Shown piece by piece: positions 6,813 through 63,270 of a DNA stretch of 64,000 nt. This stretch comes from Eledone cirrhosa. Its lineage: Eukaryota. The DNA lies in NCBI GenBank assembly GCA_964016885.1, contig OZ024746.1:9300001-9364000 (forward strand), written 5' to 3'. Within the stretch, counting starts at the first letter, position 1. Every line of letters begins with the position of its first letter. The notes beneath the pieces are model-generated. The model was not told the DNA's origin. It worked only from the letters and a program-made list of their open reading frames with translations, and did not search any database. Both the position numbers and the translations under genes were made by a program.

Positions 6813-7127
6813 CTTTCTTAATGTTATTGCTCCTACATAAGTGGAAACAAAACAGTGCAATCAAATTTTTGCGGAAAAATATCTTACTTTCTCCAATATA
6901 AAATATAATGTGTTTTGCGTAATCCAGGGACTTTCAATAATGACCTTTGGTCTTTCATACTCACTCAATATATATATATATATGTATATAAATATGCAAA
7001 AGTTTTATTTAAAATTGTTGGGTTACAACAAGTAAATATTTTATAACTGATATAAAGCACTCGACAAGTTTTTGGAGTAGATATACGATAGTAAACAAAT
7101 GGAAACTATATTTATAAAACCATATTT

Positions 7128-7191
7128 ATTTCATTATACATATTTCAGGGATACCATATTAAAAATATGGCATGCCTTCGTCAGATAAAAT
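7128..7191 (-). ncRNA. Type I hammerhead ribozyme (family A)
   Basis: attttat-CTGACGA-stem II-GAAA-tatgta-TA-atgaaat on minus strand. Confidence 0.85.
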
Positions 7192-7323
7192 ACAATATAT
7201 AACCAGTTTTATAAATAATTTTGACGTACCATAAATATAGCGACCGTTAAGCCAGCCTCCTACCTTAATGGTCGCTATATTTATGGTACGTCAAAATTAT
7301 TTATAAAACTGGTTATATATTGT

Positions 7324-7387
7324 ATTTTATCTGACGAAGGCATGCCATATTTTTAATATGGTATCCCTGAAATATGTATAATGGAAT
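7324..7387 (+). ncRNA. Type I hammerhead ribozyme (family A)
   Basis: attttat CTGACGA aggcatgccatatt-ttt-aatatggtatccct GAAA tatgta TA atggaat; stem II has 13 of 14 pairs. Confidence 0.85.
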
Positions 7388-7751
7388 AAATATGGTTTTA
7401 TAAATATAGTTTCCATTTGTTTAATATTGTATATACATATATATATATATATATATATATATATATATATATATATATATATATATATATATATATATAT
7501 ATATATACACACACATACATACATAAGTCTAAGAGATTACACTGACATGACACTGTATTCAATTCGAAGTTATCGTACCAGTCAGGATGATCCCGAAAGC
7601 ACTTGGTTGTAAAACAAGCTACTTAACTATATAACCGTATATGCATTTGTGTGTGTGTGAGTGTGTGTATATGTGTGTGTATGTGTGTATGTGCTTATGT
7701 GTGTATGTGTATGCATGCATGTGTGTGTGAGTGTGTGAGTACGTGTGTAAG

Positions 7752-7915
7752 CTCCGGCCGTTTCGACAGCTGGATCCAAACTGTTCGGATCTAGCTGTCG
7801 AAACGGGCCGAAGCTCAGCCGTCGGGGATCTGACTCTTTTCATATTACCCACTCTACAACCCTAGGTATCGAGTACTCAGGTGGGTTATTTTTTTTTACC
7901 ACACCCTATCTGATA
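7752..7915 (+). mobile_element. Divergent PLE family C 3' fragment with short fold-back in HHR stem II
   Basis: ccgtttcgacagctggatcc...ggatctagctgtcGAAAcgg...ccgTCgggg followed by the family C tail attacccactctac...gagtactc. Confidence 0.7.
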
Positions 7916-7930
7916 TATATATATATATAT

Positions 7931-59629: not shown

Positions 59630-60810
59630 TTAGCTGTATACTTTATGGAATGTTCTATGGAATTTATGCAAGCAGAGCGAAAATAAAGCTGTGCGTCTAT
59701 TTATTATAGAATTGAAATTAGATATAATGGTAAATTGCTCGGCTAGGCAGAGATTACATGTTCTGGATAGGGAAGAATTCAGGTAAGGAAAGGCGGAACA
59801 AACCTTCCTCCAAGAGATGTTATAGTTAATATTTTTGTCTTTTAAGGACCATATGAGTTCAGAGAGTGCCGTGTTAGTTCTTTTAAGTTGGCATTTAAAA
59901 GACGATTTGTGATTATAAAATCTAGCTTTGAAGGAAGTGGAAGTGGAACCGAAGTAGGTAAAAGAATTAGTATCAGTTATAACCTTATATTCATAGACTA
60001 AGTTTTTATCAAGACAATGGTTATTAAGAGGACATTTAGTTTTAATAGGGCAATTACAATTACGATTAGAGAAATTAACAGAGTTATTAACAAGTGACCT
60101 AATATTATTTATAGAAGGAATTGGATTGGAGAAGTTATTTACGATAGGAACAATAGTTTCCTGATTTAGATTGGTATTATGAACATTCAACGAAGTTACG
60201 TTTGACGTCGTATTTAAATTTACAGAATCTAGCCTAGAGTTAACAATGACGTCGGATATACTACTGCTATTATTATGACGCTCAGTTCAAATCCCGCCGA
60301 GGTTAACTTTGCCTTTCATCCTTACGGGGGTCGATAAAATAAAGTACCAGTAATGCACTGGGTAATTGCTGGCCTTGTGCCTAAAGTAGAAACAATTATT
60401 ATGACGCTCAATTTTGGAAGGATGTAATTTATTATTTAATATTTTATTGTTGTGTTTAGAGATGTTGGAAGTGGTGGAATAAGAAAATTTAATTGTATGT
60501 TTGTTAAAGATTTTACTATAAATATGTGAGGTAGGAAAGCATTTATCTAAGACCCTAAAGAATAGTTTAGGAATATTATTATTAATAGATAGAGAAAAAG
60601 AAGCATTATACCAAATTATATTTTTGTATCTAGGTCTTTTATTTAAGTTATTGGAATGTTCATAATTAATTATTTTACTATAAGACCTTCGATGATTGGT
60701 TTCCTTACTGTATTTAATTTTATCAGGATAACCGGCTTTAGAAAGCACATTATTATACTAATTGACATTAGCGTCGAAGATATCTTTATTAGAGGATAGA
60801 TTTGAGATTC
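59630..60810 (-). pseudogene. PLE linker plus GIY-YIG endonuclease, interrupted by a SINE
   Basis: CNC...CPL...CL..NLVYEY...TYFGST...FKARFYNHKSSF...LSELIW...CNLCLAE; upstream IIWYN..FS...IFNKHTIKFSYS; removing 60285-60410 rejoins the two ORFs in frame. Confidence 0.9.
60285..60394 (+). mobile_element. 5'-truncated SINE family 1 with perfect 16-bp TSD
   Basis: attattatgacgctca at 60269-60284 and 60395-60410. Confidence 0.95.
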
Positions 60811-60814
60811 TTTA

Positions 60815-61071
60815 AGCACCATAAATTGAATTTGATAACAACGTCAAACTAGCTAACTTATTGGATATATCCCTTAATATTGACACTGGCCTATATTACC
60901 CTTACCATAAAAACAATGAGAATCTAAATTATGTTAATTTTAAATCTAACCACCCCACTAACATTAAAAATGCTATAGTCAGTAATATTGAAAAAAGAAT
61001 CTCAAATCTATCCTATAATAAAGATATCTTCGACGCTAATGCTAATTACTATAATAATGCACTTTCTAAAG
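60815..61071 (+). pseudogene. Inverted PLE RT C-terminal segment
   Basis: NLLDISLN...YYPYHK...YVNFKSNHP.NIK...RIS.LS: PLE RT thumb motifs. Confidence 0.85.
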
Positions 61072-61596
61072 TAAAAAGGCATTCGACAAACTGAACCTGT
61101 ATTTGTTGTGCTATGGTACAATGTAAGTTATAGAGCAGTAAGCATGTGGGACTGCAGTGGTGGAGAGTATGAAGGAATTTTGTTGGATACTTTGAAGGTT
61201 ACAAAAATCTACCCAATCTGATATAGACCGAACTGTTATATCGGATGCCGAACGCTTCGGAATTATTATTGGGATCACCATCAACAATTTCAAGGATGTA
61301 CGTTTAAGTAGGGATAATATAGTCTATGAAGAGAGGTAACTCTTTCAAAATACTAAAGAGTTGTCTCTCTTGAACATTGTAGATAAAATTGCCGAACTGA
61401 CAAAAAGGGCTTAAAGATTTAGTGAAAAAAACGCCTTTACCAACAGAAAATTGAAGAATAAAAGCAGCAGTTAATATCTTTAGACGGCAAGGAATATAGA
61501 AATGCAAGTTTGAAGTCAATCCGAGTAGAAATGTTGATTTGTATAGACTTTCCAAAATTAGAACACACACAGACAACTTCAGTTTTATATATATGT

Positions 61597-62798
61597 ATAA
61601 TAATAATAATAATATTGTGTACAGTCCTCAGGTGCACTACAACTCATCAAAGATATATGTATAGTACATAGAATAATGTACAAATATCAGGGAAGTGAAT
61701 AGTGTACGAGACATGATATACATGCGTGTGTATGGAGGGGATATCAGGTGTAGTGTTGGCAAATTTCAGGAAGCATGGAGGTTTTAAAGGATGCAGTGTC
61801 TCGACAGATAACAACTGAACCAGGAAGTTTGTTCCATGCTTCAGCAATTCTGAGCGTGAAAAATGTTTCCGAAAGTCATTGGAGCTGTGCTGTTTTCTGA
61901 CTTTGTTGACATGCCCACGTGTGTTAGACACATGGAATTCAAAAAAGTACTCAGGGTTGTTGTTGCCAAGATGGTTAATAATTTTGTGAGTGTTTACCAA
62001 GTCAGTTGCCAGACGTCGGAGCTTCAACGTATCCATGCCCAGGGAAGTAAGGCGTTCAGAGTATGGTAGATGCCTGATGGAGGATATTCGCTTGGTTGCA
62101 CGTCTCTGAACAGTTTCCAGGCGGTCAATGTTCTGAGCAAGATAGGGGTTCCAGACTGGTGGTGCAAATTCTAAGTGTGGCCACACCATAGCTATGTAGA
62201 GCTTTAAATAGATAGCTGGAGAGCGGCTGACAAAGGTTTTGCTGAGTGATGCTAAGACACTCTCGGCCGTCTTGACAATTTTAGAGACGTGCTTTGTCCA
62301 ACGCAAATCGCTGCTGGCAGTAATGCCAGGTCACGTTCACAAGAAGACGTGTTGTGGAGGCAGTATCTGGACGCTGGGTTTTTACTCCCAAAATGCATGG
62401 TGGTACACTTGTCCACAGCTAGCTTGAGTTACAAGTGCGTGATCCATTGCTGCATTGGGTGCAGGTCAGATTGCAGGCAAGATCTATAGTGTTCAGGATC
62501 TTTCCTTTTTATCTCAAGGTACAGCTTGATGTCATCTACATATTTCAGTACTGTGACATTCTTTAAGTTAGCATCTATGTCATTAATATATGCCACAAAC
62601 AAAAGGGGGCCAAGAACAGATTCCTGTGGTACACCGGATGACATCTCATATGGTGAGGAATGCTGTCCTAGAACCGTGACTACCTCTCTTCGACTGAGAA
62701 TGAAGGACTTCAACCAGTTAAACAGATCATCCTTCACACCCATTGCAGAGAGTTTTGCCATAAATCTTTTGTGTGGCACAGAATTGAAAGCTTTAGCA
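61597..62798 (-). mobile_element. CR1-group LINE, 5'-truncated RT and 3' end with (TTA)n tail
   Basis: AKAFNSVPH, SGVPQESVLGPLLF..YIND, KYVDD, PHLEFA..VWNPY, LETVQRRATK, TRGH; frameshifted near 62310-62430. Confidence 0.92.
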
Positions 62799-63034
62799 TA
62801 TATATATATATATATATATATGTGTGTGTGTGTGTGTGTGTGTGTGTGTGTGTGTGTGTGTGTGTGTGTGTGTGTGTGTGTGTGCGTGCGTGTGCGTGAG
62901 CGTGTGTATGTATATATATATATATATATATATATATATATATATATATATATATATATACGTGTATGTATTTGTTTTGGAATATTCTTGATGAAAATTC
63001 GTATGTTGAAATAGATATTGTTAAATTTATCGAT

Positions 63035-63270
63035 GGTCATTTTGCCAAATTTGCCAATAAAAACACACTAATCGATGTTCACTTCAACGCTATTATAAGG
63101 TATTAGTTAATTCGTCAAAATTCTTTCATCACAGGTTCTGTGACCTCCTCAATGACATTTTTTCTTCTTGTCTTTCACTCCTCTTTTTTGTCTTAAGCCG
63201 TTTACTCCATGTTGTTCTTCTTATTGGCAAGATTCTATTTATTGGCAAAATCGGCAAAATGACCATCCCG
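63035..63270 (-). mobile_element. Family D-related 3' end, HHR 63114-63156 (U3 with G8), short inverted terminal copy
   Basis: gtca TTGAGGA ggtcacag-aac-ctgtgat GAAA gaat TT tgac; gatggtcattttgccaa inverted at 63243-63268. Confidence 0.72.

What the first reader, a model, noticed from the sequence alone, without database searches (positions are those of the whole stretch)
6997..63270. Dense system of hammerhead-ribozyme PLE termini inserted into (TA)n as fold-back palindromes
Seen: about 25 type-I HHR motifs in 64 kb from about 10 dissimilar families (7128/7324, 7989, 9217/9435, 17684, 25696, 26142/26359, 26932/27082, 32936/33121, 33759, 43911/44056, 47081/47732, 51401, 51734, 54600, 56196, 58216, 58477, 63114). 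Nearly all lie in 150-850 bp inserts bounded by (TA)n. The commonest layout is (TA)n - unpaired 3' tail - HHR - inversion point - inverted HHR copy - (TA)n. Known: PLE terminal repeats carry minimal type-I HHRs with palindromic stem III, and PLEs can form inverted termini. Inference: a genome-wide TA-targeted ribozyme retroelement radiation that places self-cleaving motifs on both strands and seeds long hairpins.
Basis: partly seen in the sequence, partly recalled or inferred. Interest (0 to 1): 0.92.

Follow-up and report, generated by a model that had tools for sequence, protein, structure and literature searches.

The report
Twin hairpins set Penelope copying starts
These mirror-image inserts are short end pieces of several telomerase-related jumping genes that carry a known self-cutting RNA motif, and their two outer ends stop just before two copies of a small conserved hairpin, which likely tells the copying enzyme where to start on each cut strand of the target DNA.

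Summary
The observation mostly holds. Of 25 listed motifs, 12 pass a type-I hammerhead descriptor (shuffles: mean 0.2), 3 have intact cores with long stem II, and 10 are damaged; 14 sit in seven two-armed fold-backs. In 85 arbitrary 10-kb stretches, 77 of 79 motifs lie within 250 nt of (TA)n; roughly 260,000 genome-wide. They are not a new ribozyme element: the three families traced are ends of protein-coding Hydra-like Penelope elements. Inverted copies, the one-sided tail, (TA)n targeting, opposite-strand hammerheads and the U3-A8 core are all published. Not found in print: a conserved hairpin (RCUC...GAGY-RC) occurs twice between hammerhead and start codon; arms end just before one copy or the other; 65 of 68 pairs with classifiable ends use one of each; 22 of 52 distant marine relatives carry both copies. 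Short arms pile up at a family-fixed 5' base, likely the transcript start. Best model: both target nicks prime copying of one RNA, each positioned by its own hairpin. This is inferred; no RNA data were found. The scan reported these fold-backs and twin hairpins before, on other DNA of this genome.

The parts
6984..7436 (.). Family A (subfamily A1) fold-back: tail 6984-7080, arms 7081-7251 / 7264-7434, hammerheads N3 7184(-) and 7331(+), hairpin 1 at 7059-7078(-)
7931..8595 (-). Family D1 single arm: damaged hammerhead (core 8024; one relative has U3-A8) and GIY-YIG remnant 8420-8596
9153..9707 (.). Family E fold-back inside a SINE: U3-A8 hammerheads at 9303(-, damaged) and 9441(+), hairpin 1 at 9593-9651(+)
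17606..17753 (+). Family F stub: core 17688 with 5' strand of stem I lost at the junction; tail in reverse with hairpin 1 at 17646-17665(-); relatives in L058 carry a PLE ORF
21015..21218 (.). Family J mini fold-back, 3' half of the hammerhead only; hairpin 1 at 21063-21086(-)
25602..25783 (.). Family G mini fold-back, core 25739(-) damaged (G5>A); hairpin 1 at 25654-25673(-)
26010..26465 (.). Family A (subfamily A2, young) fold-back: tail 26010-26090, arms 26091-26260 / 26304-26473, hammerheads 26198(-), 26366(+), hairpin 1 at 26072-26091(-); right arm starts at the family-fixed base 26275
26616..26864 (.). Fold-back turning inside stem II; 3' half of a hammerhead on each arm
26879..27335 (.). 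Family D2 fold-back, arms 26910-27017 / 27035-27142, both cores damaged (U4>A) at 26966(-), 27086(+)
32811..33225 (.). Family C fold-back, arms 32892-33057 / 33068-33233, hammerheads 32997(-), 33128(+), hairpin 1 at 32868-32892(-)
33537..33861 (-). Family H arm with hammerhead at 33797
43711..44266 (.). Family I fold-back, arms 43845-44056 / 44058-44269 (100%), cores 44051(-), 44063(+) with a stem II of about 110 nt
46775..46969 (.). Family J mini fold-back, half hammerhead
46983..47838 (.). Family J fold-back, U3-A8 hammerheads with long stems II and III at 47170(-), 47736(+); hairpin 1 at 47036-47059(-)
51075..51351 (.). Family J mini fold-back with the long end on both arms (one of the rare long+long pairs)
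51367..51574 (+). Family K arm, U3-A8 hammerhead at 51405
51665..51910 (+). Family H arm, core 51738 damaged (G5>A)
54560..54719 (+). Family M arm, core 54604, 3' strand of stem I deleted
56082..56712 (-). Single damaged M-like motif at 56227; no relative in my loci
58170..58336 (+). Family M arm, minimal hammerhead at 58220
58353..61071 (-). Family C insertion with ORF remnant: long end 58353, hairpin 1 at 58410-58434, hammerhead 58539, 3' UTR, GIY-YIG and RT-thumb coding remnant 59633-60811 interrupted by a SINE near 60281-60401, inverted second arm 60809-61071(+)
62961..63270 (-). H-like arm, core 63152 damaged (C3>U)

Best explanation
The inserts are 3' ends of several protein-coding Hydra-like Penelope elements lodged in (TA)n, and each fold-back is likely made when both nicked target strands prime reverse transcription on one RNA, each start likely positioned by its own copy of a conserved hairpin. 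Shown: in full-length copies the order at the repeat-ORF junction is hammerhead, short end, hairpin 1, long end, hairpin 2, start codon; the 'tail' is the stretch between the two ends; paired arms nearly always use one short and one long end; the central junction differs from copy to copy. Inferred: the endonuclease nicks both strands of (TA)n; the RT (perhaps a dimer) bound at each hairpin starts a few bases 5' of it at a TA-like patch; the two cDNAs stop at different places or run off the capped 5' end of a transcript that began inside the terminal repeat; their 3' ends join through 0-6 nt of microhomology or filler and repair fills in the palindrome. The hammerhead is copied along because it lies just upstream of the starts, and it is probably a passenger in these stubs.
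For: Link to ORFs: family C 3' end beside the GIY-YIG in 22 of 24 loci; hairpin 2 then ORF in 20 of 20 A loci and ORF in 10 of 13 J loci examined; prediction that the long end is followed by RCTC met at 94 (A) and 455 (J, some places counted twice) matches, reversed-pattern controls 0. Hairpin 1 beside the short end in 15 of 33 fold-back clusters, shuffles mean 0.44, max 4, outer pair A-U in 8 and G-C in 6. In metagenome relatives at about 28-37% identity: 47 of 55 hammerheads have the hairpin downstream (shuffles 6.2, max 14); 22 of 52 have two or more copies before the ORF, 55-83 nt apart (shuffles 0.05, max 2). 208 of 228 arm ends of A, C, J lie within 14 nt of one of the two hairpins; head-to-head pairs: 65 long+short, 2 long+long, 1 short+short, 9 with an end elsewhere. 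Either arm can reach further 5' (21 short, 17 long), and in L107 and L128 the two arms share no sequence, which a single fold-back cannot give. Arms are closer to each other than to the median other copy in 21 of 21 and to the nearest in 15 of 21. Fixed 5' stops: 75 of 108 J arms in a 16-nt window, 7 of 19 C arms in 4 nt, 132 of 509 A2 copies at one base, with a non-genomic G before it in 42 of the 100 listed. A Poseidon PLE nicks and extends both strands in vitro and starts at two internal sites that bracket the tail (PMC11167929).
Against: No RNA, binding or cleavage data; every step is read from inserted DNA. The hairpin was not found in 18 of 33 clusters, including multi-copy families H and K, 13 of 52 metagenome loci had none upstream of the ORF and 4 of 52 ORF-internal control windows had two. 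Offsets are blurred by alignment overshoot into TA. Arm-to-arm likeness could come from later conversion between palindrome arms. Some of the extra G bases can be explained by microhomology with the other arm, and the J stop lies inside stem II, where an RT stall is as plausible. In the Poseidon element the start site was not homologous to the cut DNA and lay in an AC-rich stem loop, unlike the TA-like patch and hairpin here. 24 of 88 spacers could not be assigned and three assigned ones are doubtful.
Confidence: 0.68

Rival explanations
1. Self-priming fold-back: one strand (cDNA or antisense RNA) folds on itself and primes the second arm, and the endonuclease resolves the hairpin at a TA-like site, leaving the tail; the conserved hairpin would then be an endonuclease recognition signal in DNA.
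For: Proposed for head-to-head palindromes in PMC3846280 (passages); tail ascribed to endonuclease resolution in PMC8557442; the Penelope endonuclease needed the tail for recognition (as cited in PMC11167929); many junctions have a short loop and 17 spacers belong to the long arm.
Against: 21 spacers, some hundreds of bases long, belong to the short arm; arms with no shared sequence exist (L107, L128); loops of 0-1 nt are common; hairpin 2 lies outside the inserted DNA yet marks the long end.
Confidence: 0.12
2. Two separate RNAs, each with its own RT, are copied from the two nicks, and the one-of-each rule comes from protein geometry, not from a shared template.
For: 5' extents of the two arms can differ by hundreds of bases in either direction; arms were not closer than the nearest other copy in 6 of 21 cases.
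Against: 65 of 68 pairs use one short and one long end, where free choice would give about half; arms are closer than the family median in 21 of 21.
Confidence: 0.12
3. One reading: the fold-backs are a self-standing, non-autonomous ribozyme element (MITE- or retrozyme-like) that spreads as a unit and whose ribozymes act on both strands.
For: Near-identical 450-bp inserts recur genome-wide (33 full-length matches among 40 scored); short arms have family-fixed 5' ends.
Against: Junctions differ between copies otherwise 99-100% alike; each family traced continues into an ORF; J minis lack the first core box; the read-through RNA is predicted to be one duplex.
Confidence: 0.05

Closest known systems
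Hydra clade of C-terminal EN+ Penelope-like elements, including Hydra-1_Obim (Craig et al. 2021, PMC8557442; passages, section 11 and supplement hits read)
   Same: C-terminal GIY-YIG, DKT, CxCx5C linker, CxxC/CxH around E and N, hammerhead near the 3' end, (TA)n targets, inverted 5'-truncated copy and one-sided tail.
   Different: Tandem periods here are about 3.5 kb (J) and 4.0 kb (A) against 'generally <3 kb'; tails run 28 to about 170 nt, mostly 80-95, against 30-40 bp; RW is followed by R or I, not K; the twin hairpin was not seen described in the parts read, though one copy is visible by eye at the 3' end of a Hydra consensus in the supplement.
Poseidon element PAc of the green anole, in vitro (Frangieh et al. 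2024, PMC11167929; main text read, supplements not)
   Same: Both target strands nicked and extended; two internal RT starts at the repeat-ORF junction; tail equals the stretch between them; hammerhead just upstream and not needed.
   Different: Other clade; start in an AC-rich stem loop inside the ORF, not homologous to the cut DNA; no duplicated conserved signal and no account of head-to-head insertions in the text read.
Minimal hammerheads of metazoan PLEs (Cervera and De la Pena 2014, PMC4209133; results and discussion read)
   Same: Type I motifs with palindromic stem III, extra base after A9, U3-A8 core variant, many families per genome, pairs 100-700 bp apart on opposite strands.
   Different: Counts there are thousands (about 9,000 in Xenopus tropicalis); the estimate here is about 260,000 (bootstrap 170,000-380,000) by a different descriptor; several families here have long stems II or III.
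Non-LTR retrozymes (PMC7229834, passages; bioRxiv 10.64898/2026.07.22.740005, first fifth)
   Same: Short hammerhead-bearing repeats tied to PLEs; very high copy number (up to 120,000 in axolotl).
   Different: Retrozymes are head-to-tail, non-coding and expressed as circles; these are head-to-head truncation products of coding elements.
Twin priming of LINE-1 (recalled, no call)
   Same: Second target nick primes internally on the same RNA; inversion joined by microhomology.
   Different: In LINE-1 the two cDNAs do not overlap and the second site is random; here both copy the same stretch and both sites are fixed by the element.

Membership tests
Hydra-clade PLE | Single ORF with RT and C-terminal GIY-YIG endonuclease | tested here: met
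   760-aa frame P0001; weak GIY-YIG Pfam hit on the window fragment, E 0.018, below cut-off; no Pfam hit on P0001; 39 homologs; J endonuclease frames
Hydra-clade PLE | DKG modified to DKT | tested here: met
   SDKT in C, A and J
Hydra-clade PLE | CxCx5C linker before the endonuclease | tested here: met
   present in C and J; A's C-terminus not fetched
Hydra-clade PLE | CxxC and CxH either side of conserved E and N in place of CCHH | tested here: met
   pattern found in C and J; absence of CCHH judged by eye
Hydra-clade PLE | N-terminal RWK motif | tested here: inconclusive
   RW present, followed by I (C) or R (A, J)
Hydra-clade PLE | Hammerhead near the 3' end and insertion into (TA)n | tested here: met
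Hydra-clade PLE | Groups with published Hydra RTs in a tree | not tested
   reference proteins were seen only in a paper's supplement; no tree was built, and families D-I, K, M, N were not assigned to a clade
Type I hammerhead ribozyme | Core boxes, three stems, NUH site | tested here: met
   12 of 25 by descriptor, 3 more by inspection
Type I hammerhead ribozyme | Self-cleavage | not testable with these tools
   no RNA run listed; no assay
Non-LTR retrozyme | Head-to-tail non-coding repeats with a hammerhead in each unit | tested here: not met
   head-to-head arms; A, C, J continue into ORFs
MITE / fold-back DNA transposon | Symmetric terminal inverted repeats and a fixed internal sequence copied as a unit | tested here: not met
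   one-sided tail, variable junctions

The most novel reading that the evidence does not exclude
Hydra-clade Penelope elements, from marine metagenome relatives to this genome, carry a duplicated RNA hairpin that is the RT-positioning signal; an RT dimer on one RNA uses hairpin 1 for one target strand and hairpin 2 for the other, so tail length is set by hairpin spacing, and run-off at the capped 5' end of repeat-promoted transcripts mass-produces the short palindromes. This would give the first sequence rule for Penelope priming, explain inverted insertions and tails together, and make this one of the most hammerhead-dense genomes known.
Probability: 0.5. Interest if true: 0.8.

Novelty: new variant of a known kind. 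Interest (0 to 1): 0.62.

Why it matters
How Penelope-like elements, the sister group of telomerase, make their tandem and inverted insertions is an open question; the one in vitro study found two internal start sites but no signal that places them. A short, duplicated, conserved hairpin with a one-of-each rule turns that into a direct test: move or delete a hairpin and watch the start site. Young families with intact-looking frames (821-aa open frames recur) supply the material. The hammerhead density itself is a quantitative extreme of a known phenomenon.

Tried and rejected
Rfam scan of the window: no hammerhead family among the 150 best of 344 matches listed; those were microRNA look-alikes of hairpins and simple repeats, plus U6. 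First descriptors without the extra base after A9 or the U3-A8 core under-counted (5 and 8 hits). A DNA search with the A2 hammerhead and tail returned nothing because common words are skipped; no inference drawn. I first read family A as a non-autonomous 280-nt unit; overturned that. I first recalled the ORF as Nematis-like; the motif list in PMC8557442 section 11 fits Hydra. An apparent lack of motifs on the four largest contigs (1 in 17 stretches) vanished with more sampling and the wider descriptor (23 in 35 versus 56 in 50). A universal 80-nt tail was rejected: lengths are family-specific. 'The short arm always leads' was rejected. No RNA holder listed for the A2 insert. Contigs of four runs laid on A2 gave no piece spanning the whole insert, so no independent check of that junction. 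The contig look-up tool for homologous proteins was closed, so the DNA around P0002-P0040 was not seen. Nine paper searches showed no description of the twin hairpin; the library lacks most subscription journals, and supplements of PMC11167929 and most of that of PMC8557442 were not read and may bear on this.
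Full report
SETTING. The window is G000:C6:9300001-9364000 in a 3.0-Gb animal assembly, 35% G+C, rich in microsatellites. It resembles a cephalopod genome (recalled, no call).

OBSERVATION. All 25 listed places hold a hammerhead-like motif. A descriptor with exact C3-G8 core, stems I and II and a palindromic stem III found 8, against 0 in 30 shuffles. 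Alignments with relatives showed family-wide variants: U3-A8 cores in J and K (and by fewer copies E and D1), long stems III (J, G), long stems II (E, I, J) and a U-U pair closing stem II (F, G). The widened descriptor found 12 in the window; 40 shuffles gave mean 0.2, max 1. Three more have intact cores by inspection and ten are damaged. Seven inserts carry a motif on each arm. In 85 arbitrarily placed 10-kb stretches there were 79 motifs (75 C3-G8, 4 U3-A8), 77 within 250 nt of (TA)5+ against 27% of random positions, with 1-3 in each of five shuffles; weighting the four largest contigs apart gives about 260,000 genome-wide, bootstrap 170,000-380,000. The stretches were chosen at round coordinates, not at random, and cover 0.03% of the genome. 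The 40 stretches fetched later were not added to this count.

WHAT THEY ARE ENDS OF. The hammerhead at 58539 lies 1.1 kb downstream of a GIY-YIG coding remnant at 59633-60811(-). That fragment drew 59,923 candidates, and the family C end was present in 22 of 24 other loci. A 760-aa frame (P0001) and the frames of families A and J show DKT, and C and J the CxCx5C linker and CxxC/CxH motifs, which PMC8557442 section 11 gives for the Hydra clade; RW is followed by I or R, not K, and no tree was built. J leads into an endonuclease, F relatives in L058 do too, D1 holds a remnant in the window, and A continues into an ORF in 20 of 20 loci. The other families were not traced.

ANATOMY. The A2 insert has 32 other full-length matches among 40 scored of 1,541 candidates. 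In the 20 loci aligned (one is the window), both outer ends are fixed and lie in (TA)n, three with a short duplication of the element end in between, while the central junction varies. So the palindrome is built at each insertion. The same two ends bound kilobase insertions with ORF pieces. Tails are family-specific, 28 to about 170 nt, and the short end falls at a TAT or ATAT patch.

TWO cDNAs. Of 88 fold-backs, 25 had a spacer under 5 nt, 21 spacers belonged to the short arm, 17 to the long arm, 1 was mixed and 24 unassigned; three assigned ones are doubtful repeats. In L107 and L128 the long arm is tail only and shares nothing with the short arm. One strand folding back cannot give both. 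For A, C and J, 208 of 228 arm ends lie within 14 nt of one of two sites, and head-to-head pairs were 65 long+short, 2 long+long, 1 short+short, 9 with an end elsewhere (arbitrary stretches, the window, and loci fetched for other families or for the A2 5' part). Free choice would give about half mixed. Arms are closer to each other than to the median other copy in 21 of 21 cases and to the nearest in 15 of 21; conversion between arms could also do that.

THE HAIRPIN. Just 3' of the short end, dissimilar families share R-CUC...GAG-Y followed by RC, with a loop region of variable length: 15 of 33 clusters, shuffles mean 0.44, max 4; outer pair A-U in 8, G-C in 6, U-A in 1. It was not found in the other 18, among them H and K. 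Full-length C copies show at their 5' repeat: hammerhead, short end, hairpin 1, long end, hairpin 2, start codon. That predicted a second hairpin behind the long ends of A and J, which never appears in the stubs; pattern searches found 94 and 455 matches with 0 for reversed patterns, and the hairpin and ORF follow (13 of the 20 J loci examined, the rest being the same or adjacent tandem places). In 78 metagenome loci at about 28-37% identity, 47 of 55 hammerheads with enough downstream sequence have the hairpin, mostly 40-55 nt past the cleavage site (shuffles 6.2, max 14); several without it run straight into (TA)n, as short ends do. Of 52 loci with 260 nt or more before the ORF, 22 have two or more copies 55-83 nt apart, 17 one, 13 none; shuffles gave 0.05 with two; ORF-internal windows gave 4 with two. 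Some of these loci are close relatives of each other, so the counts are not independent events. By eye the ends lie 3-7 nt before the hairpin once TA microhomology is allowed.

WHY SO MANY SHORT ONES. Arms pile up at a fixed 5' base: 75 of 108 J arms in 16 nt, 7 of 19 C arms in 4 nt, and 132 of 509 A2 copies at one A. Each stop is an A after a pyrimidine run, like an initiator (recalled). Before the A2 stop the element has C, but 42 of the 100 listed copies have G (48 T, 10 A; counted by hand), including copies fused directly to (TA)n (a set selected for G). A copied cap is the likely source (known for LINE-1, recalled); microhomology explains some. Since both hairpins exist only at the repeat-ORF junction, a transcript starting inside the repeat offers only 55-200 nt to copy, which would give these minis; in J the stop lies within stem II, so J minis carry half a hammerhead. 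An RT stall is not excluded.

THE RIBOZYME. The inverted layout gives one motif per strand, and the C1 insert is predicted to fold as a single duplex of -280 kcal/mol that takes in the whole motif. Published PLE hammerheads are weak and dimer-dependent (PMC4209133) or protein-assisted and dispensable for insertion (PMC11167929). No RNA holder was listed, so expression and cleavage are open.

WHAT IS KNOWN. Inverted truncated copies, the one-sided tail and (TA)n bias: PMC8557442 and PMC3846280. Opposite-strand pairs, U3-A8 and the extra base: PMC4209133. Two internal starts and extension of both strands: PMC11167929. Nine searches showed no account of the duplicated hairpin, the one-of-each rule or the 5' run-off; unread supplements and missing journals may hold one. 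Earlier notes of this scan report the fold-backs, the Hydra link, two-ended priming and a duplicated signal (read before my hairpin work and used as leads) and the twin hairpins (read) on other pieces of this genome; they are not independent evidence.

VERDICT. The finding as written is a dense, real example of known PLE debris. What lifts it is the start-signal rule read from it, which is strongly supported as a sequence pattern and untested as a mechanism. New variant of a known kind; interest 0.62.

Noticed in passing
window 5214-5285 (-): U6 snRNA match above the Rfam gathering score (58.2 vs 44 bits) but only 72 nt long; probably a pseudogene.
   Followed up: no
window 25485-27415: One (TA)n array holds five successive insertions (G, an unassigned 131-bp piece at 25850-25980, A2, 26616-26864, D2); inserts appear to collect in the same microsatellite.
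   Followed up: partly
window 61647-63067 (-) and 21329-21956: LINE-like reverse transcriptase remnants; RVT_1 hit E 1.5e-15 at 62432-63067, which is itself split by a TA/TG tract.
   Followed up: no
window 9027-9145, 9804-9922, 10011-10129, 60281-60401: Copies of one SINE-like repeat; family E sits inside one and another interrupts the family C ORF.
   Followed up: no
L009, L018, L010: Short duplications of the element end between arm and (TA)n, as if copying started, slipped and restarted.
   Followed up: no
L019 flanks: The two flanks of this A2 insertion are reverse complements of each other: it landed in the TA centre of an older palindrome.
   Followed up: no
L106, L114, L115, L119, L125, L127, L132, L108, L129: Single-arm A2 insertions with either end, the 5' stop joined directly to the opposite flank; one nick primed and the other did not.
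   Followed up: partly
G000:C1:91476611-91487271, C1:437200339-437210965, C7:78455098-78463158: Head-to-tail arrays of J (period about 3.54 kb) and A (4.01 kb), candidates for source loci of full-length copies; not fetched.
   Followed up: no
window 43845-44269: Family I hammerhead has a stem II of about 110 nt kept in several relatives, and the fold-back turns 7 nt before the core.
   Followed up: partly
runs X5, X6: Runs labelled as two other organisms hold 140-150 nt pieces nearly identical to the A2 arm at low depth; carry-over, diet or shared element not distinguished.
   Followed up: no
window 11900-16000 and 3679-4206: Long (CA/TG, GGT)-type simple-repeat block with extreme GC skew, and a 57-bp minisatellite giving an open frame.
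   Followed up: no
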